Shown here one piece after another: positions 2,112 to 47,123 of a DNA stretch of 64,000 nucleotides (within the stretch, counting starts at the first letter, position 1; every line of letters begins with the position of its first letter). A model generated the notes under the pieces. It saw only the letters and a list, made by a program, of their open reading frames with translations. It did not search any database and had not been told where the DNA came from. This stretch comes from an uncultured Methanosarcinales archaeon (lineage in GTDB: Archaea > Nanobdellota > Nanobdellia > Woesearchaeales > CAYVYK01): assembly GCA_964455675.1 (NCBI GenBank), contig CAYVYK010000007.1, forward strand, positions 40,166 to 104,165. The letters are read 5' to 3'. A program made the translations under genes and the position numbers.

Positions 2112-2235
2112 GACACTGCAAAGGAGCGTGTTCTATAAATACTTACTGCTAGAATTTTTCTATCACCCGGTGGTTGCTTTTGGTTGTGATCCTGATGACA
2201 ATTTTTTTAAAGGCGAGGCAAGTCTTCATATATAT

Positions 2236-2310
2236 ACGCCCCTGTAGCATACACAGCAACACACTGCTGGTCGCTACATGTGCTCCGCTTCGCTACGCCC
2301 CTGTAGCATA
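2236..2310 (+). repeat. 16-17 nt direct repeat acgcccctgtagcata (2236-2251 and 2295-2310) flanking an imperfect hairpin (2244-2277)
   Basis: Exact repeat read in the sequence; the second copy forms the 5' end of the tRNA-like element. A TATA-like atatatata sits at 2227-2235. Confidence 0.6.
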
Positions 2311-2617: not shown

Positions 2618-3401
2618 GCATTCAAGATTATCACTAGAGGATATAAAATTTGTGCGGTGACTGCGCCTACCTATAACCGCTAATTCACGCTAAAACCACC
2701 CCCGGCGTACACCGAAGAGGATCATAGCACAGCATCTTCCCCTTGTTCTCGCCATCGATGATCTAGCGCGGTCTGAACCGGCAAGTTCACCAAACGCATA
2801 CTCCCACCTCCCATGTAAAAAGTAAGCACACGATTATAATACCCTTATCAACATGGAATCTGTACATCAGATGCATAAGGGTTTTAACGGGTACAACGGG
2901 CAGGCGGAGTACATTACCAATGTGTTCTCTGTGCTTTACGTCGGTGATTTAAGGATAGTATCCGCGCTGATGTGTATCATTTATAAATAAATAAAGAGTT
3001 ATATCTACTAGCAAGTAGTGTATTAATACAAACAAAGGCATCACTAGTGGTGTTCATAATCACCACATTTGATTAAATCGTTTTGAAGACTATCAATACC
3101 ATACTACATAACAACCAGCCACACCACGAATCTTTACGCGTGCTCAACCATTGAGCCAAAAACCTTTGGCGGGTCATGCGCAAGGATCAACCCTTCGCCA
3201 TCATCGCACGGCATCTGTGGACTATCACATGACGATGTGCGGGATGAGAAACACTATGGAGGAGCCGGAATACGGGAACAAACGCGTATTTCGATGGTGA
3301 AACGGACACCATAAGACGTAGCGAAAGCTCTTTCTTGGAAATTTCCCTCGTTGGGAACAAATATTCTCACTATTCGGCGCGGCCGAGAAAGGTAGGATTC
3401 C

Positions 3402-4517
3402 ATGGCACGAAAAGCAGTAGCAGACAGAAGCGATGTACGTGAAGTCGTGTTCTGCTTCGACACGACTGGATCAATGTATCCTTGCATCGCACAGGTGAAG
3501 CGCAAGGTTGAGAGGATGGTTCGCCACCTGATGCAGGAAGTTCCCGGCATCCGAATCGGGTGCATGTGGCACGGCGACTACATCGACATGCCGAACATGT
3601 TCGGTAAGCTCGAGCTCACGACGGACATCGAGAAGATCTGCGCGTTCATCCGGAACGCACCCCAGACGGACGGAGGCGACACGGCCGAATGCTACGAGCG
3701 GATGCTCCATGAGGGCCTCGGTTTTCGGTGGACACCCGGCGCTCGACGAGTGTTCGTCCTGATCGGCGACGATGTCCCACACGAGCCCTCGTATCCGCAG
3801 AACAAGCAACGCCTCAACTGGCGCGATGAGCTCGATCGGTACACGGAAGCAGGCACGCAGGTGTATGGCGTGCAGTGCCTCGGACGGCATCACGCGGATC
3901 CGTTCTACATGGAAATCGCACGGCGCACGGGTGGCGTTCGCATCCAGCTCAGTCAGTTCCACCTCGTGGAAGACCTGATCTTCGCGATCTGCATGAAGCA
4001 GATTGGCGACGATCGCGTGGCGATATTCGAGCAGGACCTCATCCGCGAGGGCAGAATGAGCCGCGCCGCCGAAACGATCTTCGACGGGCTGCTCGGTCGC
4101 ACCGCACGGAAGTCGCGCTGGGGAGAGGCAGGCCTTGAAGCGGTCGACCCTGCGCGGTTCCAAGTGCTCAGTGTTGACAGCGACCAGGCCATCCGCGAAT
4201 TCGTCCAGAACAACGGTCTGCGCTTCAAGACGGGACGCGGATTCTACGAGTGGACGAAGCGGGAGACGGTGCAGGAGAAGAAGGAGGTCGTTCTCGTCGA
4301 CCGCAACACGGGAGACATGTTCACGGGCGGGCACGCGCGCGAGCTGATCGGCCTACCCTACGGCAACCGCGCGGACATCAACCCGAACGATCTTCCGGCC
4401 GAGCTGCGCAATCGGTTCAAGTTCTTCATCCAGAGCACGAGCTACAACCGCAAGCTCAAAGCTGGCACGCAGTTCCTGTACGAGGTCGAGGACTGGGATC
4501 GCGCTGACGCAGCGTAA
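3402..4517 (+). CDS. cytoplasmic von Willebrand factor A (vWA, MIDAS) domain protein with about 170-aa C-terminal domain of unknown function
   Basis: 371 aa. MIDAS-like DTTGS (VVFCFDTTGSM), later TDGGDT and GDDVPH. Very GC-rich (about 65-70%). SD gaaaggtagg upstream. No signal peptide. Confidence 0.75.
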   Translation: MARKAVADRSDVREVVFCFDTTGSMYPCIAQVKRKVERMVRHLMQEVPGIRIGCMWHGDYIDMPNMFGKLELTTDIEKICAFIRNAPQTDGGDTAECYERMLHEGLGFRWTPGARRVFVLIGDDVPHEPSYPQNKQRLNWRDELDRYTEAGTQVYGVQCLGRHHADPFYMEIARRTGGVRIQLSQFHLVEDLIFAICMKQIGDDRVAIFEQDLIREGRMSRAAETIFDGLLGRTARKSRWGEAGLEAVDPARFQVLSVDSDQAIREFVQNNGLRFKTGRGFYEWTKRETVQEKKEVVLVDRNTGDMFTGGHARELIGLPYGNRADINPNDLPAELRNRFKFFIQSTSYNRKLKAGTQFLYEVEDWDRADAA

Positions 4518-4539
4518 ATCTGCGCGGCAATCATCCTTC

Positions 4540-4573
4540 CGAGGAGGCGCAAAGCCATTGCTTTGCGCCTCCT
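4540..4573 (+). promoter_or_regulatory. perfect 14-bp stem hairpin (gaggaggcgcaaag-ccattg-ctttgcgcctcctc) between vWA gene and downstream gene
   Basis: Inverted repeat read directly. No trailing T-run. Abuts the ATG at 4575. Confidence 0.5.
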
Positions 4574-4574
4574 C

Positions 4575-5093
4575 ATGGAGGAATTCATGACAAGAATTAA
4601 GACGTACGTGTTCAACGCTGCCGTCGCAACATGGACAGGCATTCCCCTCGGCGTGCTGCTCGGCATCGCACACATGCACATGAAACTTGTTGACGACGAC
4701 GAGTGGCTGTCGCTAGCTACGTTTGCGACGATTGCGGTTGCGATTCTCTGCACCGTCGTTCTCCACGAGGCAGTGCACAGTATCGTTGCCCGGTCATACG
4801 GACTTCGCGCGAAGTACGGCGTCAAGTACATCTTCGCATACGTCACATTCACCGAGAAGATGCCACGCAATACGTTCCTTGTGATCGCACTTGCGCCACT
4901 CATCATCCTAAGCCCAGGGCTATTCCTCCTCTACTATCTCGACGTGCTCCGCGTGTTCAGCTGGTTCTGCTTCGTCACGAACACGTTCGGAGCGATCGGT
5001 GATATCTGGATGGCAGCGAACGCACTGCGGCACCCACGAAAATGCATAATACAAGACACGGGGGTTGGCTTTGAAATCTGGGAAGGAGAATAA
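4575..5093 (+). CDS. polytopic membrane protein with HExxH motif (putative zincin-like metallopeptidase, DUF3267-like)
   Basis: Longest ORF starts at TTG 4563. In-frame ATGs at 4575 and 4587, with GGAGG before 4587. Motif LHEAVHSIV lies between hydrophobic helices. About 170 aa. Confidence 0.5.
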   Translation: MEEFMTRIKTYVFNAAVATWTGIPLGVLLGIAHMHMKLVDDDEWLSLATFATIAVAILCTVVLHEAVHSIVARSYGLRAKYGVKYIFAYVTFTEKMPRNTFLVIALAPLIILSPGLFLLYYLDVLRVFSWFCFVTNTFGAIGDIWMAANALRHPRKCIIQDTGVGFEIWEGE

Positions 5094-5098
5094 CTGCC

Positions 5099-6166
5099 AT
5101 GCCCAAGATGGAGATCACATCACTCCTTGACGCGTGCATCAGGATGGACGCGTCAGACATCCACATCTCACCCGGGAAAGCACCGTGCCTTCGTCTGCAC
5201 GGCGAGATCACACCCCTCGAAACGATACCTGTCACAGAGGAGATCGCCGTCCAGCTCATGAAGGCGATTACGCCGGAGCGACATCAACAAGAGCTCATGG
5301 AAGAGGGGACAACTGAGTTCGGTTTCGACTATACTGAGGCAGCGCGCAGATTTCGCTGCTCGATTTACAAGACACGTCAGGGAACGTGCATGGTCCTGCG
5401 CCTCGTGCCAAAGGACATCCTCACATGCCAGGAACTTGGGCTTCCGCCCAAGGTTTCTGAGATCGTACTCAGCAAGGCGCGAGGCATCTTCTTTGTCACC
5501 GGACCCACGGGCTCGGGCAAGTCCACGACGCTTGCGGCGCTCATCCACCTAATCAATTCCACGCAAGCGTGCAAGATTGTGACGTTCGAGGATCCGATCG
5601 AATACGTGCACACACACCGCAGGGCGATCATCGAGCAGCGAGAAGTGGGAACACACCTAGTCGGGTACATCGACGGCATCCATAGGGTGCTGCGACAGGA
5701 TCCGAACGTCATCCTTCTCGGAGAACTGCGCAACCTCGATACGATGGAGGCTGCACTGCGCGCTGCCGAGACAGGCCACCTCGTGTTCGCGACGCTGCAT
5801 ACGAGGGGTTGTTCGAGCGCGATCAACAGAGTCATCGATGCGTTCCCAGAGATCCAGCAGAACCAAATCAAGACGCAACTCGCCATGTCGCTCCTTGGCG
5901 TGCTCAGCCAGATCCTCGTCCCCCGAAAAGGGCCAGGACGCGTCGCCGCGTTCGAATTCATGTACACGGACAACGGCATCCGAAGCATGATCATGCAGGA
6001 CAAGCCCGTGCAGATCGACAGCCACATCCGCACGCACACAGGTAAGGGCATGATGCTCATGGATGATCATCTCTTCCGGATGGTTGAGGCGAAAGTCATC
6101 ACGAGGGAAACCGCGATCGAATACGCGCGGAACACTGCCGAAATGGAGGAACGGCTCAGTCGGTAG
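5099..6166 (+). CDS. pilT: PilT/PilU-family type IV pilus retraction-type ATPase
   Basis: 355 aa. Walker A GPTGSGKST, Walker B ILLGEL, His box FATLHT, and C-terminal GIRSMIMQDKPVQIDS resembling the PilT AIRNLIRE motif. SD ggaaggaga 9 nt upstream. GC about 58%. Confidence 0.85.
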   Translation: MPKMEITSLLDACIRMDASDIHISPGKAPCLRLHGEITPLETIPVTEEIAVQLMKAITPERHQQELMEEGTTEFGFDYTEAARRFRCSIYKTRQGTCMVLRLVPKDILTCQELGLPPKVSEIVLSKARGIFFVTGPTGSGKSTTLAALIHLINSTQACKIVTFEDPIEYVHTHRRAIIEQREVGTHLVGYIDGIHRVLRQDPNVILLGELRNLDTMEAALRAAETGHLVFATLHTRGCSSAINRVIDAFPEIQQNQIKTQLAMSLLGVLSQILVPRKGPGRVAAFEFMYTDNGIRSMIMQDKPVQIDSHIRTHTGKGMMLMDDHLFRMVEAKVITRETAIEYARNTAEMEERLSR

Positions 6167-6201
6167 CGCGTGTGTGCACGTCTGGACAGCACGTTCTCCA
6201 G

Positions 6202-6232
6202 GGTACGACGACTGTTGTCGTACCCTTTTTTT
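6202..6232 (+). terminator. intrinsic-type terminator hairpin (ggtacgacgactgttgtcgtacc) followed by a T7 run
   Basis: Read directly, 36 nt after the pilT stop. Confidence 0.6.
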
Positions 6233-6344
6233 ATCTTATATCATTACCATATAGTAAATATATTTGAGAAAATACCAATGACTTAAGGTGACGCATAAAG
6301 ATAAAAAAAAATCAGAAAATCAAGAGTGAAGCAGTAGAAAAGGA

Positions 6345-6410
6345 TTACTTCTTCTTCGTGGGCTTCTTCTTCATGGAAGCACAGGAACCGCCACAGCAGC
6401 AACCAGCCAT
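6345..6410 (-). CDS. 21-aa Cys-rich, Lys-tailed micro-ORF (MAGCCCGGSCASMKKKPTKKK)
   Basis: Strong SD GGAGGTGA 5 nt upstream of the ATG. Located 68 nt downstream of the last ABC permease gene. Followed on the minus strand by a T9 run (plus-strand 6305-6313) that would end the operon. Confidence 0.35.
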   Translation of the reverse strand: MAGCCCGGSCASMKKKPTKKK

Positions 6411-6478
6411 TCAATCACCTCCATAAACTGATGACACGCTTCTCTTTTTAACCTCTTCGTTTAACAGAATCCCTAGCG

Positions 6479-7690
6479 TTATTCCCAGCGCAGTGCATCG
6501 ACGGGATTGAGCTTTGCCGCCTGCCACGCTGGCCAGGAGCCAGACGCCGCACCCATGATAAACGCGAACGCTAGTGTTCCTGCGACCAGCCACCAGGGGA
6601 AGTGAGGAACAATGATTGTGTAGCCGGCAACCGCCGCACCCTTGGACAATCCGACAGAGATTGAATACCCGAGAAGCACGCCAAGAATTCCTCCCACAAG
6701 TCCCAAGAATCCGGATTCGATCAGGAATATCCCAAAGATATCACCGTTCTTGGCGCCAATTGCTTTCATGACACCAATTTCCTTTGTGCGTTCCAGAACA
6801 GCAGTGTACATGGTGTTCAGAATTCCGATTGCACCAACAATCAAGGAGATACATGCGATCATGAAAAGTATTCCCTGCATGACGAGCAGCACAACAGTAA
6901 ACTGCTGGATAAGTTCCTCAAGTGTCTGGACAAAAAATGTCTCCTTTCCCTTCTCCTCACCTCGATGACGACGGAGCTTTTCAGCAACGACGTCCGCCAT
7001 CTCAGAGGGGTTCTGATCAGGAGCAACGCGGGCATAGAGCATATAATACGTTTTTGATTCTCCAAAAATCTCCTCATACCCCTCCTCTGAAATGTACACC
7101 TGCGCGTCGTCATTTGGATTCCCGATCTGCTTGTATATACCAACAACATCCGCGCGATTGTCATTGATAAGCACGTGGTCACCAACTTTGACGGGCCGAG
7201 TAAATATCTTATTTGGCTGACCATAATTATATCCAAGAATCACCTTCATCTTGTCGCCCTGCCGCAGCTCGCGACCCTCGATGATCTCGAGCTGGAATGA
7301 CTCTCTCACGAAGAAACGCTCTTGGCCCGTAGGCATTGCAAGCACAAAGACATACTTGAACTGATCATCCTTTTCTATCTTAACAGAATTGAAGCGAAAA
7401 CCAACTGCCTCAGAAATCCCATTGATCCGACGCACAAAGCTCACATCACTATCCGAAAGATTGAAAGGCAGCGATGTTCCAGGAGCCGCAAATCCACGCC
7501 CTTGAATCATGAGCTTATCTCCCCCCATCTTCTCGAATTGCTTGTTTAATTCCGTGCTGAGTCCTTGTCCCAGACTCACGAGCGCAACAACGGCAGCAAC
7601 TCCAATAGTTATCCCAAGGACAGTAAGCCAAGAGCGCAGCCTCCGATGTAGCAAATTTCCAATTGCGTACGTAAAATAGTCAGTGATCAT
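6479..7690 (-). CDS. ABC transporter permease, FtsX/MacB-like (4 TM plus large extracytoplasmic domain)
   Basis: 403 aa. N-terminal MITDYFTYAIGNLLHRRLRSWLTVLGITIGVAAV TM1, large extracellular domain, C-terminal FtsX TM bundle. ATGA overlap with the upstream paralog. Confidence 0.8.
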   Translation of the reverse strand: MITDYFTYAIGNLLHRRLRSWLTVLGITIGVAAVVALVSLGQGLSTELNKQFEKMGGDKLMIQGRGFAAPGTSLPFNLSDSDVSFVRRINGISEAVGFRFNSVKIEKDDQFKYVFVLAMPTGQERFFVRESFQLEIIEGRELRQGDKMKVILGYNYGQPNKIFTRPVKVGDHVLINDNRADVVGIYKQIGNPNDDAQVYISEEGYEEIFGESKTYYMLYARVAPDQNPSEMADVVAEKLRRHRGEEKGKETFFVQTLEELIQQFTVVLLVMQGILFMIACISLIVGAIGILNTMYTAVLERTKEIGVMKAIGAKNGDIFGIFLIESGFLGLVGGILGVLLGYSISVGLSKGAAVAGYTIIVPHFPWWLVAGTLAFAFIMGAASGSWPAWQAAKLNPVDALRWE

Positions 7691-8910
7691 TTGATTGCCC
7701 TCAACGCGTCAACGGGTTTTAGTTTGGACGCCTGATATGCGGGAAGAGCACCGGAAGCGAGTCCAACTAAGAAGGAGAATAGAAGAGCACCTGGAACAAG
7801 GTACCAAGCGATATTAGCGCGCACCAAATCCGAGGCAAGGTATGCAGCACCAGCGAAGGCCAAACCTTTTGCGAGTGAAACACCAATCCCAACACCGATG
7901 AGGCCTCCAAGCATGCCAAAAAAACCAGACTCGATTGCGAATAGCAGAAATATGGTTCCATTCGTTGCACCGAGAGACTTCATGATGCCAATCTCCTTCG
8001 TACGCTCAAGAACAGAGGTGTACATCGTATTCATGATACCAATGCCACCAACCATGAGCGAGATGAATGCGATGAATACAAAGAAAACTTGAACCGCGAG
8101 AAGAACAGTATTCAGCTGGCGTAGAGCGGCCTCAGGTGTCTGCACCGTAAAATCTTCCTCACCTTCCTTCACGTCCCGCTCCTTTCGCAGCACGCGCTCC
8201 ACTTCCGCTTCGACAGAGTTGAGATTGTCAACATTCGCGACTTCTACAACGATGGAATCATACCGGTCAGGAATGCCATATAGATCTCTCATGTCCTCCT
8301 CGTTCATACTGACAATATCGTCAACGATAAATGATCCTTTACGTTCCAGAATCCCAATAACCTGAAATTCTCTGTCATTAACGAGGATTCGATCGCCTGT
8401 CGATACAGCGCGTCCGTACTCATTGTCTGCCTTAGCGAAGTTCGCGCCAACAATCACCTTGCTTCTATCGCCATCACGAAGAAATCTTCCCTGCATGATC
8501 TCAAGATTATCGGAACCTTGTATCAACCTACGTTCCTCACCGTCAGGCAGGCTGGCCACATACGTGTAGGACAGTTTGTTGTTAAATTCTGTCTTTGATA
8601 AGGTAATTATCCTTCCAGCAACGCCGGAGACACCTCTCACTGATGAAATCTTATTCACATAACTTTTATCCAAAGGAACGACCGCACCTGCTCCGGGCGG
8701 ACCTTGACCGGTACCTGACGCTTGCACAGTAAGTTTATCCGCATCGAGAAGAGCAAACTGCGAGGTAATAGCATTCCTCATTCCATCCCCAAGCGCGATG
8801 AGACTTACAACAGCTGCTATACCTATGAATATCCCGATAAGAGTAAACCAGGAGCGAACCTGACGCTTCCGGATACTTGCCCAAGCATACTGGAAATAGT
8901 CCGTGATCAT
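7687..8910 (-). CDS. ABC transporter permease, FtsX/MacB-like (paralog)
   Basis: 407 aa, same architecture and about 40% identical to the downstream permease. 4-nt overlaps on both sides. Confidence 0.8.
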   Translation of the reverse strand: MITDYFQYAWASIRKRQVRSWFTLIGIFIGIAAVVSLIALGDGMRNAITSQFALLDADKLTVQASGTGQGPPGAGAVVPLDKSYVNKISSVRGVSGVAGRIITLSKTEFNNKLSYTYVASLPDGEERRLIQGSDNLEIMQGRFLRDGDRSKVIVGANFAKADNEYGRAVSTGDRILVNDREFQVIGILERKGSFIVDDIVSMNEEDMRDLYGIPDRYDSIVVEVANVDNLNSVEAEVERVLRKERDVKEGEEDFTVQTPEAALRQLNTVLLAVQVFFVFIAFISLMVGGIGIMNTMYTSVLERTKEIGIMKSLGATNGTIFLLFAIESGFFGMLGGLIGVGIGVSLAKGLAFAGAAYLASDLVRANIAWYLVPGALLFSFLVGLASGALPAYQASKLKPVDALRAIK

Positions 8911-10184
8911 CGTGACTTTTCGCTACGCTTTTTGCGAACTGCGCGGAAGATGAGGAAGCCGATCACGACAATCACCACGACAATAATGACGCCAATCCAG
9001 GGATTGGTCTTACCATTATTGTATTGCTTTGCCTTCAACGCAGAGATTATAGGGACTTTCACCGAGGAAGTCATTGTATACTGCTTGTTCGTGGAGTCAC
9101 TGTACGTCATCTGTACCGGAATCGAAAGTTCCTCAGTAGCCGAAGGATGGACAAAGATCTCCAGATCGGCAGTCTGATAGTCATCAGAGTCAATCTCACC
9201 GATATAATTTTCTGCTGGCGAGAGTATATCATATTGCACAGTATTCCCGATTGTAGTGTACAAGAATTTGACACCCGTCGGTCCCTTGTTGATGTAGCGC
9301 AAACTCAGTTTCGCTTTCTGACCGGGCGTAATCATTCCGTCAGGCTCAGCAGTAACGATGAGATCGGGAGTTCCTCCTACAATGAGCGATGTGAGTACCT
9401 CTTTTGTATAGTTGCTCTCCAGGGAATCAATATACTCTATAGAGATTGGTACACGATAAATCTTAGCGATAGCGTCACTTTCTGCTATCAGATGAAATTG
9501 TACTTGCATCGTCTGCCCAGGATCAAGGAACTGTATTGTTTTTTCGTTAATAGAATCAACTGGCGCGAAAGGAGTCGTGTCTGAGAGATCCAAGCGAACA
9601 CGTACGTCCCTCACATAGGTACCTGCTTGGTTATTCACCTCAAGCGTGAGGAAGGTCTCGCCCCCGGGTTGCACCCGAGAGGGATCGGACTTTACGCCAC
9701 TGATCTCAACATTCGCTCTGCTTACCTGAACAACAACATAGAACGGCGTCAGATCAGCCCATGTATTGCCACCATCCTTAGAATAGCGCAAATCCAAACG
9801 GTGGTTTCCCTGAGGAGCGTTCTTATCGACTTGCAAACGATAACGTATGATGTACGCATCCCGCCCTGTATTCAAATTGTCCACAGTTCCAAGGCGTACC
9901 TCTGCAGGTGTTGAGGGATCAATAGTAAAAGGATACTCAGGATCAAGAGCGACAACGAGATTGCTGATTTCACCACTCAAGACCTGCACCTTGAAACGCA
10001 CATCGACAAAGGCACCAGGACGCACAGGATCAGGATCCTGATTTACAAAGTATGTCGGCAGATCCCCAGTGTTATAATTGGAATCATGACGAATGTCAAC
10101 ATACCCTGACGCTTCGGCAAGCACAACCGGCGCTAGTATGAGCATAACACTGATTATTCCAATGGATGACAGTACATTTTTCAT
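8907..10184 (-). CDS. secreted surface protein with cleavable signal peptide and C-terminal TM anchor (ABC-transporter-associated)
   Basis: 425 aa. N-terminal signal ...VVLA/EASG. C-terminal hydrophobic helix IGVIIVVVIVVIGFLIF followed by RAVRKKRSEKSR. Embedded in the ABC operon. Confidence 0.5.
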   Translation of the reverse strand: MKNVLSSIGIISVMLILAPVVLAEASGYVDIRHDSNYNTGDLPTYFVNQDPDPVRPGAFVDVRFKVQVLSGEISNLVVALDPEYPFTIDPSTPAEVRLGTVDNLNTGRDAYIIRYRLQVDKNAPQGNHRLDLRYSKDGGNTWADLTPFYVVVQVSRANVEISGVKSDPSRVQPGGETFLTLEVNNQAGTYVRDVRVRLDLSDTTPFAPVDSINEKTIQFLDPGQTMQVQFHLIAESDAIAKIYRVPISIEYIDSLESNYTKEVLTSLIVGGTPDLIVTAEPDGMITPGQKAKLSLRYINKGPTGVKFLYTTIGNTVQYDILSPAENYIGEIDSDDYQTADLEIFVHPSATEELSIPVQMTYSDSTNKQYTMTSSVKVPIISALKAKQYNNGKTNPWIGVIIVVVIVVIGFLIFRAVRKKRSEKSR

Positions 10185-10200
10185 AGATATCCCTCCAGGT

Positions 10201-10899
10201 TCATGATTTCACCATGACTGATCTCTCAATCTGACCATCCTTCAAATATTCGATACGATGCGCAAAGTGGGCAACGTTATCATCATGCGTCACGAGAATA
10301 ATTGTTTTTCCCTCTTCCAAATGCAGTTTCTTAAGGAAATCCATCACGATCTTCCCTGTTTTTGAATCAAGATTTCCTGTTGGCTCGTCCGCGAGGATCA
10401 CTTCAGGATCGTTCGAAAGCGCCCGTGCGATCGCCACACGCTGCTGCTGACCACCTGACAACTCCGTAGGACGGTGATGCATCCGATCCTGAAGTTCCAC
10501 AAGCTTGAGAAGCGCGGTCGCCTTTTTAATCCGCTCATCCCTTGGCACACCCTGAAATGTCATGGGCAGCATCACATTCTCAAGAGCTGAAAGCGTAGGA
10601 ATGAGATTAAAACTCTGGAAGATAAAACCGATCATCCTCCCCCTAATCTGAGCAAGGTCTGACTCATGCAGCTGGGAGATGTCCTTGCCATCCAAAAAGA
10701 TCCTACCCTTTGTTGGAACATCAAGACAGCCAACCATATTCACTGCGGTGGACTTGCCACTTCCTGAAGGGCCCATGATGCTGATGAAGTCACCCCGCGT
10801 TACTTCAAGGTTCAAGCCTTGCAGGGCAGCTACCTCAACAGCGCCCATTGTATAAATCTTCCACACATTCTCAAGCTTGATGACTACATCTTTCTTCAT
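10201..10899 (-). CDS. ABC transporter ATP-binding protein (MacB/LolD-type)
   Basis: Walker A GPSGSGKST, signature LSGGQQQRVAIARAL, Walker B ILADEPTGNLD, H-loop VTHD. Likely start at MKKDVVIKLENVWKIY (ATG 10899) rather than the track start at 10935. Confidence 0.85.
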   Translation of the reverse strand: MKKDVVIKLENVWKIYTMGAVEVAALQGLNLEVTRGDFISIMGPSGSGKSTAVNMVGCLDVPTKGRIFLDGKDISQLHESDLAQIRGRMIGFIFQSFNLIPTLSALENVMLPMTFQGVPRDERIKKATALLKLVELQDRMHHRPTELSGGQQQRVAIARALSNDPEVILADEPTGNLDSKTGKIVMDFLKKLHLEEGKTIILVTHDDNVAHFAHRIEYLKDGQIERSVMVKS

Positions 10900-11062
10900 A
10901 GCAGCAACCACTCTCACGTATTCTATATGCATCACAATTCCTTACTTATAAAGATTTGGTCATAGATTCAAGATATGTATGAGAAAATACGTTCTCGGTA
11001 CAAGAAGAGTCGATTCTTCTCACGAGTTTTTCCGACGGCTCGGGGAAGCTTTGACACAAGAT

Positions 11063-16472: not shown

Positions 16473-17573
16473 TTGATACACATCCCCGTGCTTGAACCAG
16501 ACATTGGCAAAGATGAACAAGAAGAACTCATGGACGTCATACGGACACGGTGGGTCACTGAGGGGCCTAAGACCAAGCTCATGGAGCAGAAGTTTTCGGA
16601 GATGGTTGGAGTCACTCATGCCATTGCGTACGCGAACGGAACACTCGCGCTCTATGCACTCCTCAAAGCGCATGGCATCAAGGAGGGCGATGAAGTCATC
16701 GTGCCGGATCTCACATTCATCGCAACAGCAAATGCAGTCATTCTCGCAGGAGCAACACCAGTCTTTGTGGATGTTCATCCCTACACATATTGTATCATGC
16801 CAGAAGCAATCGAGCGCGCAATCACAGCACGAACGAAAGCGATCATGCCCGTGCACCTCTACATCCAAATGGCAGACATGCCACGAATCATGGACATCGC
16901 GAAGAAGCATGCGCTCATCGTCATCGAAGACGCCGCCCAGGCAATCGGCATGAAGATTGCGGGAAAACATGCTGGAAGCTTCGGGCATTCAGGAATGATC
17001 AGTTTCTATGGCAATAAAACAATAACCACAGGAGAAGGAGGAATCGTCCTCACGAACGATGACGAGATCGCACGATCATGCTATCGCCTCAAAAACCATG
17101 GAAGGGACAGAAAGGGAATTTTTGTCCATGAACATATCGGGTACAATTTTAGCTTTACCGATCTCCAGGCAGCGGTCGCACTTGGCCAGCTCAAAAAGCT
17201 ACCTCAAGAACTTGAACGAAAAAACCAGATACGAGCGTACTATGAACGTAAGCTCCATGGCATCGTCAAATTCGCATCGGTCGATCCACAATGTACACCT
17301 GTGCACTGGCTAACAAACGTACTCGTCGATGACCCAGGAGCACTCGCGCAGCACCTCGAAACCCTTGGAATCCAAACGCGAAGATTCTTCCTCCCACTTC
17401 ATCAGCAGCCATGCTACAAGCATCTGAAGATCAAAAACAAATTTCCAAACGCAGATGCGGCATACGATCACTGTCTCTCGCTCCCTTCGGGAACAAGACT
17501 AAGCCAAAAGGAACTGGACGAAGTGTGCACGGCAATACAAAAGTTCTATGCACGAACCGCCACCAAGAGATGA
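16473..17573 (+). CDS. DegT/DnrJ/EryC1/StrS-family PLP-dependent sugar aminotransferase
   Basis: 366 aa. TTG start with SD aaaggtga. Conserved PLP lysine in SFYGNKTITTGEGG. N-terminal IPVLEPDIGKDEQEEL is typical. Confidence 0.8.
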   Translation: MIHIPVLEPDIGKDEQEELMDVIRTRWVTEGPKTKLMEQKFSEMVGVTHAIAYANGTLALYALLKAHGIKEGDEVIVPDLTFIATANAVILAGATPVFVDVHPYTYCIMPEAIERAITARTKAIMPVHLYIQMADMPRIMDIAKKHALIVIEDAAQAIGMKIAGKHAGSFGHSGMISFYGNKTITTGEGGIVLTNDDEIARSCYRLKNHGRDRKGIFVHEHIGYNFSFTDLQAAVALGQLKKLPQELERKNQIRAYYERKLHGIVKFASVDPQCTPVHWLTNVLVDDPGALAQHLETLGIQTRRFFLPLHQQPCYKHLKIKNKFPNADAAYDHCLSLPSGTRLSQKELDEVCTAIQKFYARTATKR

Positions 17574-30060: not shown

Positions 30061-32343
30061 CTATTGTGACTCAGTCATCCGAATCTTCTTAACCTGGCGC
30101 GAAAACCAAGAGTCCCACTCTTCATAGATGCGACGGGAGTCAAGAGCGCCAACCTCCTCCCTCACTTGGTCCGAGATGCGGTGGAACTGATCATTTGCCT
30201 GCACGATAAACGCGGCCTCCATTAACTCAGGCATGTTCGTTGAATCTGCAACTTCCACTATCCGCTGCTTCATGTTCGCGCGAAGCATGATATTATCCCA
30301 CACCGCATCCCACTTCCCTGCCCATTCCCGAACGTTACCCGCGATCGACTTGAGGATGTCACTTTCGCCCTGGATGAAATCCTTCGTAGGCTCAAGCTTG
30401 TCAATCAGGGGATTGTACTTCATAAGGTCACCAAAGCCACCCTCACGAAGAGGATCATCCACCCAGAACTTTCGCACCTCGGTAACCTGCGTGACCCGAC
30501 GGAAACGATGCATGCCATCGGCACTCTTGATCGGATTTGCGACAATGATAATATCAGTCGCCTTGAAACTCGTGCGGGGAACCTTAAGATCATTCACAAC
30601 ACGATCGAATACACCATAGGGCGAATCACCGTGGATCGTACCCGCAACAACGTTCGCAAGCGCGCCAACACGCATCGCTTCATAGAGAGCAGTAGCCTCT
30701 TTGCTGCGAACCTCGCCAACGATAAGGCAAGAATCACCAAGGCGCAAGGTCGTGCGAATCCCGGTCTCGGCGTCAACCTCAGACGTTGCAGCACCGATAG
30801 CGGAACTCACCTTCATGGGCTGAATGTTATAGCCGAGCGCGCGCATCGAGCCAACAGGAAGCTCAAGCGTGTCCTCAATCGTGATGATACGATACTTGCG
30901 CATAATCTCAATCAAGAGCGCGCTCAATAAAGAGCTCTTACCCGCAGAGCGAGTACCTGCAACAAGCATCGTCCTTGAGCCGTCAATAAGGAAACTCATC
31001 AGCCCTGCGGAAAGTGGGGAGATCATTCCCTGCTTGATGAACAAAGGAAGCGTCCAAGGACGGTCACGATGACGCCTGAAAGCATACGCTAGACCTGAGG
31101 GGTTGAGCGGGGGAGAGATGACTGCGATACGCGCCTTTGATCCAGGAAGCTCAAGTTCAGTGTCAAGAATGGGATTTGCCTCATCCAAGGGGCGGCCAGA
31201 GATCAAACGCAGCTTTGTCGCCCATGAATCGGACTCGTTTGGCGTCGGATAAATGTTGGTGCGACAATCCTCAAAATCCTGATGAACGATAAATATGGGA
31301 ATCTGGCCCATGGGAGAATTAATCGTAATATCCTGAACCTTTTCGTCCTGTAGTAGTACCTCAACAAGCCCAAAACCAATCGTGTACCGTACAAGAATCT
31401 GCGTCAACTCATCCCAATCCTTTTCCTTTAGATGCACGCCCTTGAAGTCAGATAGCTCGCCAAGAAGGTCACGACCAACATTTGAGAACACCTGACGCAT
31501 ACGTTCAGGATCGATAAATTCGGCTCGCTTTGGCTTATGATCGGCAAGGATGTTTCGTGCCATATCAAGAAGCTCATACTTATCTTCACTTAAGCGAAAC
31601 TCTGGAGGCATCATGTGATAGAGGTACTGTACCGTCTCTGGAATACTGAAGATGGTCACTTCAGTCGAACCAACCTCATAGCTCTCAAGCTCCTCACCGT
31701 CAGATGGATAGTTCGCCATGAGCTTTGTGTACATGAAGTCAGGCTTAATCGTCGGCGCAAACAATTTCCGATAGATCTCGCGATCCCCGATGTGATAGTC
31801 AGAGAGATACGGCTTAGCCATAATGACAAGCTTTGTCTTGTCCAGCATGAGAAGAATGTAATTCAGCAGTTTCACCCAACGCTCCAAATGCTCCTTTCGC
31901 GATTTTTGCTCCTCGACCTCATAGTTGATCTTCACATGACGGTAGATCCGCTTGAGCTCGACGTACGCAGAAATCGGATCTCCCTTCAACCTACTGAACA
32001 CGATGTGCTGCAGCTGAGTGTATGTGGAGCTATCCTTTGATAGCCCCCGCATCTGGAATGAGAGAAGCCGCTGCCTCACAATATTTGCGTAGATACGCGC
32101 GATCTCAGCGACCATCTGCGTCTGATCATAATCATACTCAAAGTCTCGCTTCTGAGCAAACACGATTTTTGTCGCGGCACCAGCCTCCGCGAGAATCTCC
32201 ACCGTCTTTGACATACATAAGGAGTCGTCCTCAAGCGATGGAGTCTTCGTGTACGCCTCAAGGTCGATGCGAAGAATGATCTCCTGCCCTTCGCGGACCA
32301 CTTCATACTCAAAAGGCTTCTTACTTGACGTGGTCCCTGCCAT
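30061..32343 (-). CDS. type II/IV secretion-system ATPase (FlaI/TadA/VirB11/GspE family), enlarged N-terminal region
   Basis: 760 aa. Walker A LVAGTRSAGKSSLLSAL at about aa 450, Asp box, Walker B IIVGEVR, His-box-like region. Confidence 0.85.
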   Translation of the reverse strand: MAGTTSSKKPFEYEVVREGQEIILRIDLEAYTKTPSLEDDSLCMSKTVEILAEAGAATKIVFAQKRDFEYDYDQTQMVAEIARIYANIVRQRLLSFQMRGLSKDSSTYTQLQHIVFSRLKGDPISAYVELKRIYRHVKINYEVEEQKSRKEHLERWVKLLNYILLMLDKTKLVIMAKPYLSDYHIGDREIYRKLFAPTIKPDFMYTKLMANYPSDGEELESYEVGSTEVTIFSIPETVQYLYHMMPPEFRLSEDKYELLDMARNILADHKPKRAEFIDPERMRQVFSNVGRDLLGELSDFKGVHLKEKDWDELTQILVRYTIGFGLVEVLLQDEKVQDITINSPMGQIPIFIVHQDFEDCRTNIYPTPNESDSWATKLRLISGRPLDEANPILDTELELPGSKARIAVISPPLNPSGLAYAFRRHRDRPWTLPLFIKQGMISPLSAGLMSFLIDGSRTMLVAGTRSAGKSSLLSALLIEIMRKYRIITIEDTLELPVGSMRALGYNIQPMKVSSAIGAATSEVDAETGIRTTLRLGDSCLIVGEVRSKEATALYEAMRVGALANVVAGTIHGDSPYGVFDRVVNDLKVPRTSFKATDIIIVANPIKSADGMHRFRRVTQVTEVRKFWVDDPLREGGFGDLMKYNPLIDKLEPTKDFIQGESDILKSIAGNVREWAGKWDAVWDNIMLRANMKQRIVEVADSTNMPELMEAAFIVQANDQFHRISDQVREEVGALDSRRIYEEWDSWFSRQVKKIRMTESQ

Positions 32344-38049: not shown

Positions 38050-38703
38050 TCAAGACTTTCTTAAAGATCTCCACGCATTAATCGTGGCATCAACCATCAC
38101 GTCCATCGTATCCATTCCTTTGAAGGAGGACTTTCGCGCAATGCATGATAATTCAGTACACGCAATAAGCACCTCGTCAACAGGATATTTACGGCTTATT
38201 TTCCGAAGCGTTGAACCCATCGATGGCGAGTATGCCCCATTGTTGTACACCAATATGATATCATCAATCTCCTGTGCATCCCTCTTTGAAAGAGCAACTT
38301 TTCTGATGTCCTCATAGTTGAATAGCAACCGTTCGGTTTTCATAGATCCAAGAACGATGAAAGATTTTACTTTCTTTTTCAACAGACGGACATGAACCTC
38401 CTTCTCAATATCGAGCAATGGAATGCTTACATACTTGCTCAATTCGTCCAAATACGCGTGAGCAGTATTACAGACAATCACAATAAAAGAGCACCCGACC
38501 TTGTCCAAGTCCCTCAACCCAGCAACATACATGGAGAGATCGGGATTATGCACGACAACTGGCTCAGCCGGGATACTATTGATGACCAGATGAGGATAAT
38601 CCTGATTAGCCCGAATCATTCCTCGAGACTGAACCTCCCGGATCATTCGGGCATAGAAATCAACAGATGACTCAGGACCAAGCCCACCAAGCACGCCTAT
38701 CTT
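38050..38703 (-). CDS. Asp/Glu/hydantoin racemase family protein (aspartate racemase-like)
   Basis: Track start 38757 is a TTG overlapping the SET gene. GTG 38703 yields the typical N-terminus VKIGVLGGLGPESSVDFY. CNTAHAY cysteine motif. Confidence 0.75.
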   Translation of the reverse strand, partial: KIGVLGGLGPESSVDFYARMIREVQSRGMIRANQDYPHLVINSIPAEPVVVHNPDLSMYVAGLRDLDKVGCSFIVIVCNTAHAYLDELSKYVSIPLLDIEKEVHVRLLKKKVKSFIVLGSMKTERLLFNYEDIRKVALSKRDAQEIDDIILVYNNGAYSPSMGSTLRKISRKYPVDEVLIACTELSCIARKSSFKGMDTMDVMVDATINAWRSLRKS

Positions 38704-38711
38704 CACGTCCT

Positions 38712-39086
38712 TTACTCGATCCTGTGAAATTTTTTCCTGCACCTTAGACTTCCGCAATTGCAGTTCACCTCCGACTCGCTCATCTCCGTACGATCATAAT
38801 CACAGGTGATCTCCTCTCCAGCAAAAATATTTCTCAGCGCGACAAGCCGAGGCTGCTCATGCGCAATGTCAAACAAAGCGTTTGGATCACAAGAGTGGTT
38901 AATCCAGTTCAAAACTTTCGGATCATTCAACCAACGCTCATTACCAATAAAAGCACATCTGCGTTTTGGAGCGGGGAGAATCGAATCCATTGGGGCTTTG
39001 TACAATACCTCACCTTTGAGAATATTACTTGCGGCAAATATACCAAACCCATGAATGGCACTATGCTTCCTAATAAGATTGGCCAT
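38712..39086 (-). CDS. SET-domain protein (lysine methyltransferase-like)
   Basis: 124 aa. GFGIFA, NHSCDPN, EEITCDY and post-SET CNCGSLRCR motifs. Confidence 0.8.
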   Translation of the reverse strand: MANLIRKHSAIHGFGIFAASNILKGEVLYKAPMDSILPAPKRRCAFIGNERWLNDPKVLNWINHSCDPNALFDIAHEQPRLVALRNIFAGEEITCDYDRTEMSESEVNCNCGSLRCRKKFHRIE

Positions 39087-45848: not shown

Positions 45849-47123
45849 GTGTTCCGAGGAAGACGAGGCCAGGAAGGAACCAGTGGAAAGACAGCCAGCC
45901 TCATCGCCATCATACTCGCGTGTATTATCCTCTACATTCTCTTCCTTCCGCCGGACGAAAGGGAGGAGCTTCTCAAGGAGAACACGACGGATAGTGATGA
46001 TGACGATGACATTAGGTACAAGAGCGAGCAGATACTCCTGCGCGAATACATTGGATCTCTAGAATACTTCAACCAGAGGGTGTGCGACTATGATGACACA
46101 AATAGGTATTGCGAGCATCCCGTTCCGAATATCAATCTGTTTGAGACCAGGTCAGCAATCGAGCTAGGAAAAATGAACGCTGTTTATGTGAAAAGCGGAA
46201 CATTCGAGAAAGAACACAAAACCATGACATTTGCCATCGAGGACCTTGAGAAGACAAGCAACGTCCAACTCAGCTTTGTTGCAGAACAGCGGGAAGGCCG
46301 ACTCGTCATCAAGCTCAACGAAGAGGTAATATTCGAGAATGAGATTGACAAAAGCAATCCAGAACCTATTGCGCTACCGGATGACTTGCTCCAGACCACG
46401 AACAAGCTCGAATTTGCAGTATCAGGAGTTGGAGGAGCCTTCTGGGACACGAACGAATACCTGCTATCCAATCTCAAGGTCATAGGAGAAGTGCAAAACA
46501 ACGACCGCCAAACAGGAACGTACTCATTCTCCATAAATCCAACTGAAAATGAAAACCTCGAGCGTGCATGGCTTGAGTTCTACCCTGTCTGCAATCCACG
46601 AAACGTTGGAGTGCTCTACGGCTATGTGAATGGCAATCGCGTGTTTAGCGCAGTACCAGAGTGCGAAGTACGCAACAAGCAGGAGATCAGGATCGGATAC
46701 CTTGACTCAGGAAGCAACGACATCAGTTTCACGACAGAAAAAGGATCATACCTCATTGAAAAGATACAAGTCCTGACGGAGATTAAGGAAGTAGACAAGG
46801 CAACGTTCTACTTCGAACTAAACTCAACGGAATATGACAATGTACTCGACGGAGAGCGACAGGTCAATATCACATTCTTTTTTGTTCATGACGATGACTA
46901 TGTTGATGATATCGAATTCAAGCTCAACGTGAACGGCCACCTCGCATACATCGACAACAGGTATCTTGAAGGCCGCAGCCGAAACGGAGAGAGGATAACA
47001 CGAGGGTATTACTCACGAATCATCGATGAATGGGTAGAAGAAGGAAACAACTACATCCAAATCGAACCCAAAAGCACACTCGAGATCAAAGAAATGCGAG
47101 TCTCTATCTATGATGTCGATTAA
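45849..47123 (+). CDS. N-terminally membrane-anchored extracellular protein, hypothetical (operon gene 1)
   Basis: 424 aa. GTG start with SD aggtga. TM helix ASLIAIILACIILYILF, then acidic DSDDDDD linker and an about 380-aa extracellular domain. TATA tttatata at 45795-45802. Confidence 0.5.
   Translation: MFRGRRGQEGTSGKTASLIAIILACIILYILFLPPDEREELLKENTTDSDDDDDIRYKSEQILLREYIGSLEYFNQRVCDYDDTNRYCEHPVPNINLFETRSAIELGKMNAVYVKSGTFEKEHKTMTFAIEDLEKTSNVQLSFVAEQREGRLVIKLNEEVIFENEIDKSNPEPIALPDDLLQTTNKLEFAVSGVGGAFWDTNEYLLSNLKVIGEVQNNDRQTGTYSFSINPTENENLERAWLEFYPVCNPRNVGVLYGYVNGNRVFSAVPECEVRNKQEIRIGYLDSGSNDISFTTEKGSYLIEKIQVLTEIKEVDKATFYFELNSTEYDNVLDGERQVNITFFFVHDDDYVDDIEFKLNVNGHLAYIDNRYLEGRSRNGERITRGYYSRIIDEWVEEGNNYIQIEPKSTLEIKEMRVSIYDVD

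What the first reader, a model, noticed from the sequence alone, without database searches (positions are those of the whole stretch)
6345..6410. SD-led 21-aa Cys-rich/Lys-tailed micro-ORF as terminal gene of a MacB-type ABC exporter operon
MAGCCCGGSCASMKKKPTKKK has a near-perfect GGAGGTGA Shine-Dalgarno site 5 nt upstream. It is 68 nt downstream of the second FtsX permease and is followed by a T9 run that would terminate the ATPase, surface-protein, permease, permease operon. MacB/FtsX exporters frequently export peptides, and the CCCGGSC motif suggests metal binding or thioether/disulfide chemistry. It is too short for ORF callers.
Basis: partly seen in the sequence, partly recalled or inferred. 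Interest (0 to 1): 0.5.

Follow-up and report, generated by a model that had tools for sequence, protein, structure and literature searches.

The report
Orphan Cys-rich micro-ORF after archaeal transporter operon
A 21-codon reading frame with an unusually strong ribosome-binding site really does sit at the tail of a transporter operon in a DPANN-like archaeon, but it occurs nowhere else we could look, so it is best read as a lineage-specific, probably young small gene of unproven function, not a conserved part of the exporter.

Summary
On the minus strand, 6410..6345 encodes MAGCCCGGSCASMKKKPTKKK. It lies 68 nt after the second MacB/FtsX permease. A 9-nt Shine-Dalgarno match (GGAGGTGAT) ends 3 nt before the ATG. 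T4, T4 and T9 runs follow the stop codon.

A 9-nt SD plus ATG plus ORF of at least 15 codons arises in only 0.6% of resampled intergenic sequence from this window. Other genes in the window use the same SD, so translation is plausible.

Every test for conservation failed:
- No similar or compositionally analogous ORF in 80 related loci, including 41 mapped ends of the same four-gene operon.
- None in the nearest relative (59% identical permease).
- None in a JGI metagenome pattern scan, the 5.8-billion-protein collection, plasmids, phages, Pfam, NCBIfam, PHROGs or PDB.

The Lys tail is an in-frame 15-nt tandem duplication. The ORF sits at the junction with a high-GC, bacterial-like PilT block.

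No signal peptide, maturase or conserved linkage supports export by the transporter.

Verdict: a real, probably translatable orphan micro-ORF. Its function is unknown; a thiol/metal-binding cationic peptide is the best guess. Interest is low to moderate.

The parts
6345..6410 (-). 21-codon micro-ORF, ATG..TAA, encoding MAGCCCGGSCASMKKKPTKKK
   Evidence: GC is 51.5%, against 41% in the upstream spacer and 26% downstream.
6414..6422 (-). Shine-Dalgarno sequence GGAGGTGAT, a 9 of 10 match to GGAGGTGATC (the complement of the 16S 3' tail). The GGAGG core is 7 nt from the ATG.
   Evidence: No other site in the window matches the 10-nt anti-SD complement over more than 8 nt. The same motif precedes real genes at 38050-38757, 30061-32343 and 16473-17573.
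6411..6478 (-). 68-nt spacer between the permease-2 stop codon and the micro-ORF. It has no oligo-T run, so read-through from the operon is expected. The in-frame TGA at 6413-6411 closes the ORF upstream.
6303..6341 (-). Oligo-T tract cluster (T4 6341-6338, T4 6319-6316, T9 6311-6303). This is the probable archaeal-type terminator of the operon transcript.
   Evidence: That oligo-T tracts act as archaeal terminators is established knowledge, not tested here.
6348..6376 (-). In-frame 15-nt tandem duplication, TCC ATG AAG AAG AAG / CCC ACG AAG AAG AAG, that builds the SMKKK-PTKKK tail
   Evidence: family D9 (14-nt copies, 93% identical, spacing 15).
6370..6427 (-). Local hairpin with a 12-bp outer stem (6427-6416 pairs with 6381-6370) that would sequester the SD. 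It is not statistically distinguishable from shuffled sequence.
   Evidence: -23.4 kcal/mol, z = -1.3, and 20 of 200 shuffles fold as well. The wider region gives z = -0.27.
6479..7690 (-). MacB/FtsX-type permease 2 (403 aa)
   Evidence: PF12704 and PF02687. Homologs are DPANN archaeal, and the best non-self match is 59% identical.
7687..8910 (-). MacB/FtsX-type permease 1 (407 aa)
   Evidence: PF12704 and PF02687.
8907..10184 (-). Surface protein (425 aa) with a hydrophobic N-terminal segment, weak CARDB/NPCBM-associated matches, and a C-terminal hydrophobic (likely transmembrane) segment followed by a basic tail
   Evidence: domain matches are below the Pfam cut-offs. It is conserved in the same operon position in relatives.
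10201..10935 (-). MacB/LolD-type ABC ATPase, first gene of the operon. The true start is probably the internal ATG at M13.
   Evidence: Homolog alignments begin at residues 13-18.

Best explanation
This is a genuine, translatable micro-ORF that is restricted to this lineage. It is read from the 3' end of the transporter operon's transcript through a near-perfect Shine-Dalgarno site, the initiation mode seen at several other genes in this window.

The product would be a soluble, strongly cationic 21-mer. Its N-terminal half carries a five-thiol cluster (CCCGGSC), and its C-terminal half is a poly-Lys tail made by an in-frame 15-nt duplication.

It is evolutionarily young or fast-evolving. It sits at the junction between the native DPANN operon and a horizontally acquired, bacterial-like, high-GC block. 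It is not a conserved component or substrate of the MacB-type transporter.

If it has a function, the most likely one is thiol-based binding of soft metals (Zn, Cu(I), Cd, Fe-S) or redox buffering, with the Lys tail holding it on anionic surfaces such as membrane or nucleic acid.

Shown: the ORF, the SD, the spacing, the position in the operon, the statistical rarity, and the absence of homologs. Inferred: co-transcription, translation, youth, and any chemistry.
For: - SD strength and use: the 9-nt SD with optimal core spacing is the longest anti-SD match in the window. Other window genes use GGAGG, AGGTGA or GAGGTGA at 3-9 nt.
- Rarity: a 9-nt SD + ATG + ORF arises in 0.6% of intergenic resamples, and an 8-nt SD in 3.2%. 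For SDs of at least 7 nt, 2 were observed against a null mean of 0.14.
- Co-transcription: there is no T-run between the permease stop and the ORF, and T4, T4 and T9 follow it.
- Coding-like composition: ORF GC is 51.5%, inside AT-rich flanks of 41% and 26%.
- Reading frame: the duplication that built the tail is 15 nt, so it preserves the frame.
- Not an RNA element: the region shows no significant RNA structure.
- Rare composition: 3 distinct ORFs among 28,024 small-ORF candidates.
- Reproducibility: identical sequence occurs in two SRA assemblies, and one of them spans permease, micro-ORF and PilT.
- Foreign neighbour: the adjacent block has 55-63% GC against about 47% elsewhere, and its PilT is closest to Phycisphaerae sequences at about 50% identity.
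Against: - There is no conservation anywhere. That covers 80 GTDB loci, of which 41 have mapped operon ends, the nearest relative L083, the metagenome pattern scan, the protein collection, plasmids and phages, viral contigs, and Pfam, NCBIfam, PHROGs and PDB.
- All available relatives are distant (permease identity 59% or less), so purifying selection cannot be measured.
- Both halves of the ORF are low-complexity DNA, which can arise by slippage without selection.
- The SD can pair into a local hairpin.
- Scaled to a whole genome of about 1 Mb, a chance SD-ORF of this quality is no longer very improbable (roughly 0.1 by extrapolating).
- There are no expression data.
Confidence: 0.45

Rival explanations
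1. It is a chance ORF in low-complexity 3'-UTR DNA. The SD-like string and the ATG are fortuitous, or are a relic of the rearrangement that brought in the neighbouring foreign block. No stable or functional peptide is made.
For: - The ORF is a complete orphan.
- It is composed of short DNA repeats: TGC/TGT/GGC/GGT and a duplicated AAGAAGAAG.
- GGAGGT as a hexamer is not enriched in the window (25 observed against 23 expected).
- The SD can be sequestered in a hairpin.
- Extrapolated to the whole genome, the chance probability is about 0.1.
Against: - At the window level, p is 0.006-0.03.
- The SD spacing is optimal and matches the genes in this window that use an SD.
- The ORF is a GC-rich island inside AT-rich spacer.
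- The duplication preserves the frame.
Confidence: 0.3
2. The peptide is a cargo, or a RiPP-like precursor, that the co-encoded MacB-type ABC system exports to the cell surface or outside. There it would act as a metallophore, an antimicrobial or a host-interaction factor.
For: - The ORF is co-oriented with the operon and probably co-transcribed with it.
- The ATPase's best NCBIfam match is the darobactin exporter ATPase DarD (254 bits).
- Cationic Cys-rich peptides are a common antimicrobial type (general knowledge).
Against: - The DarD match is far below its cut-off of 375 bits, and LolD and MacB score nearly as well, so it is generic.
- The operon is conserved in at least 41 loci without any such ORF.
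- There is no leader, signal peptide or double-Gly motif in the 21 residues.
- No radical-SAM enzyme, cyclase or protease lies in the operon or nearby.
- From established knowledge, MacB-family transporters work by mechanotransmission on extracytoplasmic substrates.
Confidence: 0.05
3. It is a cis-acting sensor ORF. Ribosomes would pause at the UGC-UGC-UGU run when Cys-tRNA is scarce, or at the AAG runs. This would change the stability or termination of the operon's 3' end, or change read-through antisense to the convergent pilT gene. The peptide itself would be irrelevant.
For: - Three consecutive Cys codons are enough for Cys-responsive attenuation in mycobacterial poly-Cys short ORFs (10.1101/834739).
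- The ORF ends 33 nt before a T9 terminator and faces a convergent gene.
- A hairpin links the SD to codons 10-14.
Against: - The known attenuators lie 5' of the genes they control. Here no open reading frame of 60 codons or more lies on the same strand for about 3.7 kb downstream.
- The operon has no link to cysteine metabolism.
- The hairpin is not significant.
- The feature is not conserved.
Confidence: 0.07

Closest known systems
Unannotated SD-led small ORFs / micro-proteins of prokaryotes, as found by ribosome profiling in Haloferax volcanii (PMC10117724, PMC7261190; listed, not read in detail)
   Same: It is below gene-caller length limits, has its own ribosome-binding site, lies within a polycistronic transcript, and is often lineage-specific.
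   Different: There is no expression evidence here and no paralogs or orthologs. The archaeal Cys-containing micro-proteins studied so far are mostly CPxCG zinc fingers (from memory), and that motif is absent here.
Polycysteine leaderless short ORFs that act as cysteine-responsive attenuators in mycobacteria (Canestrari et al., 10.1101/834739)
   Same: It is a very short ORF with at least 3 consecutive Cys codons in an operon transcript. RNA pairing involving a ribosome-binding site is possible.
   Different: Those ORFs are leaderless and are the first ORF of the transcript. They sit upstream of the cysteine-metabolism genes they regulate. This one is SD-led, is the last ORF, and has nothing downstream on its strand. 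It is also archaeal.
Metallothioneins and short Cys-cluster metal-binding peptides (for example the Cox17 CCxC Cu(I) site and bacterial SmtA or MymT; from general knowledge)
   Same: It has 24% Cys with adjacent Cys-Cys and C-x-x-x-C spacing, Gly/Ser linkers, and no aromatic residues.
   Different: It is 21 aa, against 50 aa or more for bacterial metallothioneins. It has no sequence match to any Pfam or NCBIfam metallothionein model. It carries a poly-Lys tail, and no metal-homeostasis genes are nearby.
Peptide or RiPP cargo genes linked to MacB-type (type VII) ABC exporters, such as darobactin DarA-E, the lactococcin-972 ABC system, and MacAB with enterotoxin STII
   Same: A small peptide gene is co-oriented with an ATPase and FtsX/MacB-PCD permeases.
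   Different: There is no leader peptide, no maturase and no conservation of the linkage across 41 homologous operons. The transporter here belongs to the archaeal ATPase / surface-protein / two-permease type, whose substrate is unknown.
FeoB-associated Cys-rich membrane protein (PF12669)
   Same: It is a tiny protein with a Gly/Cys-rich cluster encoded next to a transporter.
   Different: That family has an N-terminal transmembrane helix, and this peptide has no hydrophobic segment. There is no HMM match for the peptide. The only PF12669 hit in the region is a sub-threshold match to the surface protein's transmembrane tail.

Membership tests
MacB-type (type VII) ABC transporter operon (context) | Permeases with a MacB periplasmic core domain (PF12704) plus the FtsX C-terminal 4-TM domain (PF02687), together with a MacB/LolD-like ABC ATPase | tested here: met
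   Both permeases hit PF12704 (83-91 bits) and PF02687 (74-75 bits) above their cut-offs. The ATPase hits PF00005, with LolD, MacB and DarD as its best NCBIfam neighbours.
Conserved terminal gene of this operon type | A homologous or analogous micro-ORF follows the last permease in related operons | tested here: not met
   There are 41 operon ends mapped by tblastn. None has an SD-led Cys-rich or Lys-tailed small ORF. A tblastn search with the peptide against 840 kb of loci gave only chance fragments.
Exported peptide / RiPP precursor of an ABC exporter | An N-terminal leader or signal sequence, or a recognisable cleavage motif | tested here: not met
   The peptide has only 21 residues and no hydrophobic or leader segment. 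The Cys cluster starts at residue 4.
Exported peptide / RiPP precursor of an ABC exporter | An adjacent maturation enzyme (radical SAM, cyclodehydratase, lanthionine synthetase, or peptidase) | tested here: not met
   The operon has only the ATPase, the surface protein and two permeases. The neighbours are CDC48, a metallophosphatase, PilT, a DUF3267 zincin and a vWA protein, on other transcription units.
Poly-Cys attenuator short ORFs (mycobacterial 'Cys ribulon') | At least 2 consecutive Cys codons in a short ORF | tested here: met
   UGC UGC UGU at codons 4-6, plus Cys10. The criterion is from 10.1101/834739.
Poly-Cys attenuator short ORFs (mycobacterial 'Cys ribulon') | It is the first (leaderless) ORF of the transcript and lies upstream of the regulated cysteine-metabolism genes | tested here: not met
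   The ORF is the last on the transcript and is SD-led. It is followed by T9 and a convergent gene. No open reading frame of 60 codons or more lies on the same strand for about 3.7 kb downstream.
Metallothionein-like peptides | High Cys content in CC / CxC / CxxxC clusters and few or no aromatic residues | tested here: met
   5 of 21 residues are Cys, in the pattern CCCGGSC, and there are no aromatic residues.
Metallothionein-like peptides | Sequence membership in a described metallothionein family | tested here: not met
   There is no Pfam or NCBIfam hit at E <= 1. The only PDB match is one weak hit to a scorpion potassium-channel toxin (E = 7.3).
Metallothionein-like peptides | Stoichiometric metal-thiolate cluster formation | not testable with these tools
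   This needs synthetic peptide and spectroscopy or mass spectrometry.
Archaeal CPxCG zinc-finger micro-proteins | One or two pairs of C(P)xCG motifs | tested here: not met
   There is no CPxCG or CxxC motif in the sequence.
Translated small protein (generic) | Evidence of translation or purifying selection | not testable with these tools
   There are no expression data. No relative is closer than 59% permease identity. Only identical copies are available.

The most novel reading that the evidence does not exclude
A DPANN archaeon has recently evolved a 21-residue peptide with a thiol cluster and a poly-Lys tail. The peptide is co-expressed with a MacB-type surface transporter and is handled by it. 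It would act outside the cell as a metallophore, an antimicrobial, or a factor that sticks to the host's anionic envelope. That would be a de novo micro-gene recruited to an episymbiont's cell-surface machinery.
Probability: 0.05. Interest if true: 0.6.

Novelty: new member of a known kind. Interest (0 to 1): 0.25.

Why it matters
If translated, this would be one more example of the unannotated small proteome of uncultured DPANN archaea. It could also be a case of a young micro-gene arising by in-frame duplication at a horizontal-transfer junction. That is mildly useful for studies of small-ORF annotation and de novo gene birth.

It does not reveal a general accessory of archaeal MacB-type transporters, because the homologous operons lack it. 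The practical value of this check is negative. The attractive idea of a peptide cargo of the exporter has no comparative support, so the ORF should not be propagated as a transporter component.

Tried and rejected
1. Family and structure libraries for the peptide (Pfam, NCBIfam, PHROGs, PDB sequences) gave nothing.
A tandem-duplicated 42-aa query was accepted, but only 5 candidates shared words with it and none scored at E <= 10. Neither the exact peptide nor the overlapping 43-aa ORF is in the 15-billion-sequence collection. Gene callers rarely call ORFs this short, so these databases could only have shown longer homologs.
3. A genome-contig scan with a permease alignment returned 80 loci. 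Checks for Cys-rich small ORFs downstream of the match, tblastn with the peptide, a composition filter, and an operon-end SD-ORF listing were all negative.
4. The nearest relative's contig (L083) has no comparable ORF.
5. A metagenome scan with the degenerate pattern for MAGCCCGGSC gave two hits. One is a eukaryote-like CAG-repeat region. The other is a longer high-GC ORF starting MMMAGCCCGGTCSC. Neither is comparable.
6. A looser viral-contig pattern returned only off-frame ORFs in GC-rich repeats. tblastn against plasmids and phages found nothing.
7. A structured RNA or riboswitch reading was rejected. There are no Rfam hits except tRNA-Thr, and the fold z-scores are -0.27 and -1.3.
8. A frameshift into the overlapping -1 frame would add a hydrophobic tail, VILFYCFTLDFLIFFYLYA. 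I rejected this on inspection: G-AAG-AAG is not a slippery heptamer, and the T9 terminator lies inside that frame.
9. I tested whether the ORF lies in an integrative island bounded by a tRNA-Thr repeat. The only tRNA-derived repeat is 59 nt upstream of the tRNA itself, not near 6200-6480.
10. An own promoter is not convincing. The only TATA-like string, TTAAAAA around 6447, would place the transcription start inside the SD (inference).
11. I asked whether the 3' UTR is unusually long. It is not: 167 nt to the first T5+ run, against a median of 71 and an interquartile range of 41-178 in relatives.
12. Literature searches for the motif strings and for the SRA run accession found nothing relevant.

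Full report
**What is there**

The feature is on the minus strand. Reading the reverse complement of 6150-6560 gives this order:
- the end of a 403-aa permease (…LRWE, TAA at 6481-6479);
- a 68-nt spacer;
- GGAGGTGAT (6422-6414), then TGA, then ATG (6410);
- 21 codons, ATG GCT GGT TGC TGC TGT GGC GGT TCC TGT GCT TCC ATG AAG AAG AAG CCC ACG AAG AAG AAG TAA, ending at 6345.

The translation is MAGCCCGGSCASMKKKPTKKK. The in-frame TGA directly before the ATG means the ORF cannot be longer.

The strand is minus. The 8-mer GGAGGTGA is 4 nt from the ATG, not 5. The GGAGG core is 7 nt away.

Downstream are T4 (6341-6338), T4 (6319-6316) and T9 (6311-6303). The 68-nt spacer has no T-run of 4 or more.

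**Context**

Pfam and NCBIfam confirm the four upstream genes:
- an ABC ATPase of the MacB/LolD type (10201-10935);
- a 425-aa surface protein with a hydrophobic N-terminal segment, weak CARDB/NPCBM-like matches and a C-terminal hydrophobic (likely transmembrane) segment (8907-10184);
- two MacB_PCD + FtsX permeases (7687-8910 and 6479-7690).

Permease homologs are almost all from DPANN archaea (Woesearchaeota, Nanoarchaeota, Pacearchaeota, Micrarchaeota). The best non-self hit is only 59% identical. The window also has an archaeal-type CDC48.

The ATPase / surface-protein / permease / permease order is conserved in dozens of DPANN genomes.

The convergent neighbour (5099-6166, plus strand) is a PilT/PilU-family ATPase that scores above its NCBIfam cut-off. 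Its nearest relatives are Phycisphaerae and other Planctomycetota at about 50% identity. It lies in a 55-63% GC block, against about 47% for the rest of the window. It ends in a bacterial-style hairpin plus T7 terminator (6200-6226).

The micro-ORF therefore sits in the 312-nt junction between a native operon and a probably horizontally acquired block. One Logan assembly contig spans permease, micro-ORF and PilT with identical sequence. A second covers the permease and the micro-ORF.

**Is it more than chance?**

The organism uses Shine-Dalgarno initiation for many genes. GGAGG, AGGTGA(T), GAGGTGA and GGAGGTGA occur 3-9 nt before the starts of long ORFs at 8907-10184, 16473-17573, 30061-32343, 38050-38757, 45849-47123, 49095-50195 and others.

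The micro-ORF's 9-nt match is the longest in the window to the 10-nt anti-SD complement; no other site exceeds 8 nt.

In Markov-1 resamples of the window's 6.4 kb of large intergenic regions, a 9-nt SD + ATG within 1-10 nt + ORF of at least 15 codons appeared in 0.6% of trials. An 8-nt SD appeared in 3.2%. With a 7-nt threshold, the window has 2 such ORFs against a null mean of 0.14.

The ORF is a 51.5% GC patch between a 41% GC spacer and a 26% GC tail.

Its composition is rare. Only three distinct ORFs, this one included, have at least 4 Cys plus at least 5 Lys/Arg in the last nine residues, among 28,024 small-ORF candidates (12-45 aa, counted from every in-frame start codon) in about 860 kb of DPANN DNA. 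This one is the only one with an SD.

The region has no significant RNA structure. The 191-nt fold gives z = -0.27. A local hairpin that pairs the SD with codons 10-14 gives z = -1.3. Rfam finds nothing here.

I conclude that the SD-ATG-ORF arrangement is unlikely to be accidental at the scale of this window. Extrapolated to a whole genome, chance is not negligible.

**Is it conserved?**

No.
- Related loci: 80 loci recovered with a permease alignment from one genome per GTDB species contain no similar sequence (tblastn) and no compositional analogue.
- Operon ends: the 41 loci whose operon end is covered show no SD-led Cys-rich or Lys-tailed ORF after the last permease.
- Nearest relative: the 59%-identical locus L083 has none.
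- Metagenomes: a scan with the back-translated MAGCCCGGSC pattern gave two unrelated hits.
- Protein collections: the 5.8-billion-cluster collection gave nothing, and the exact peptide is not on record.
- Other libraries: plasmids, phages, viral contigs, Pfam, NCBIfam, PHROGs and PDB were all negative.

There are two caveats. All available relatives are distant. Gene callers rarely report 21-codon ORFs, so protein databases are blind to them.

**How it was built**

The tail is an in-frame 15-nt tandem duplication, TCC-ATG-AAG-AAG-AAG / CCC-ACG-AAG-AAG-AAG (D9). The Cys/Gly half is also low-complexity (TGC/TGT/GGC/GGT).

All six Lys codons are AAG, against 60% AAG in the window's genes. That fits recent duplication better than long-term codon drift.

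The duplication, the lack of homologs and the position at a transfer junction together point to a young, lineage-specific ORF.

**Most likely mechanism**

I consider it most likely (about 0.45) that the ORF is translated from the operon's 3' end via its SD. The product would be a soluble, strongly cationic, thiol-rich 21-mer that is not a conserved part of the transporter.

If it is functional, the five clustered thiols separated by Gly/Ser suggest soft-metal or Fe-S binding, or redox chemistry. The Lys tail suggests electrostatic attachment to membrane or nucleic acid. This last step is inference from composition only.

**Rivals**

1. A fortuitous, untranslated or non-functional ORF in repeat-like DNA (about 0.3).
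2. A cis-acting Cys/Lys-codon stalling ORF (about 0.07). The closest precedent is the mycobacterial poly-Cys attenuators (10.1101/834739). Those lie upstream of the genes they control, whereas nothing lies downstream here.
3. It lacks a leader, a maturase and conserved linkage. It also conflicts with the extracytoplasmic substrate entry proposed for MacB-type transporters (general knowledge). The ATPase's best NCBIfam neighbour, DarD, scores far below its cut-off and is no better than LolD or MacB.
4. A -1 frameshift into the overlapping hydrophobic frame. I rejected this on inspection for lack of a slippery site.

**Verdict**

It is best filed as a new, orphan member of the known class of SD-led unannotated small ORFs. 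Interest is low to moderate (0.25). It would rise if translation, or conservation in close relatives, were shown.

Noticed in passing
window 3402-6233: This is a high-GC block (55-63% against about 47% elsewhere) with three co-oriented genes: a vWA-domain protein (3402-4517), a DUF3267 putative zincin peptidase (4563-5093), and a PilT/PilU-family type IVa pilus ATPase (5099-6166). It ends in a bacterial-type hairpin + T7 terminator (6200-6226). PilT's nearest homologs are Phycisphaerae and other Planctomycetota at about 50% identity. A bacterial retraction-ATPase block in a DPANN-like archaeal contig suggests horizontal transfer.
   Followed up: partly
window 2235-2251 and 2294-2310: A perfect 17-nt direct repeat, TACGCCCCTGTAGCATA. 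The second copy overlaps the 5' end of tRNA-Thr(CGT) (2297-2369). It may be an att-like scar of an integration event.
   Followed up: no
window 2722-2811 (minus): A second SD-led small ORF in a gene-poor stretch. GGAGGTG (2811-2805) lies 5 nt before an ATG (2799) that opens a 25-aa ORF, MRLVNLPVQTALDHRWREQGEDAVL. Its composition is unremarkable.
   Followed up: partly
window 6283-6414 (minus): An overlapping 43-aa TTG-initiated ORF in the -1 frame. It has an acidic middle and a hydrophobic tail (…HEEEAHEEEVILFYCFTLDFLIFFYLYASP). It has no SD spacing and contains the T9 tract, so it is probably an artefact of T-rich DNA.
   Followed up: partly
L023 2054-2233 and L030 7281-7451: In two DPANN loci (one labelled Nanoarchaeota, one Woesearchaeota), a small protein of about 57 aa with CxxC…CxxC motifs (MAKKCIYCGSEI…CRKCGVGVWG…) follows a permease of the same operon type. 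It is unrelated to the micro-ORF.
   Followed up: no
L085 760-1019 (minus): A high-GC metagenome contig carries a longer ORF beginning MMMAGCCCGGTCSCPSG…, directly after a small hydrophobic ORF. It shares the N-terminal motif but has a different architecture. I treated it as coincidence.
   Followed up: partly
L105 and L142 (IMG/VR contigs): An identical 35-aa ORF, MRKKSPLKRGQTSHDRRLYCCCGACCCGCCCGGCC, occurs in two viral contigs. It has a basic head and a poly-Cys tail, the mirror image of the arrangement here. No SD-like core was seen in the 18 nt printed upstream.
   Followed up: no
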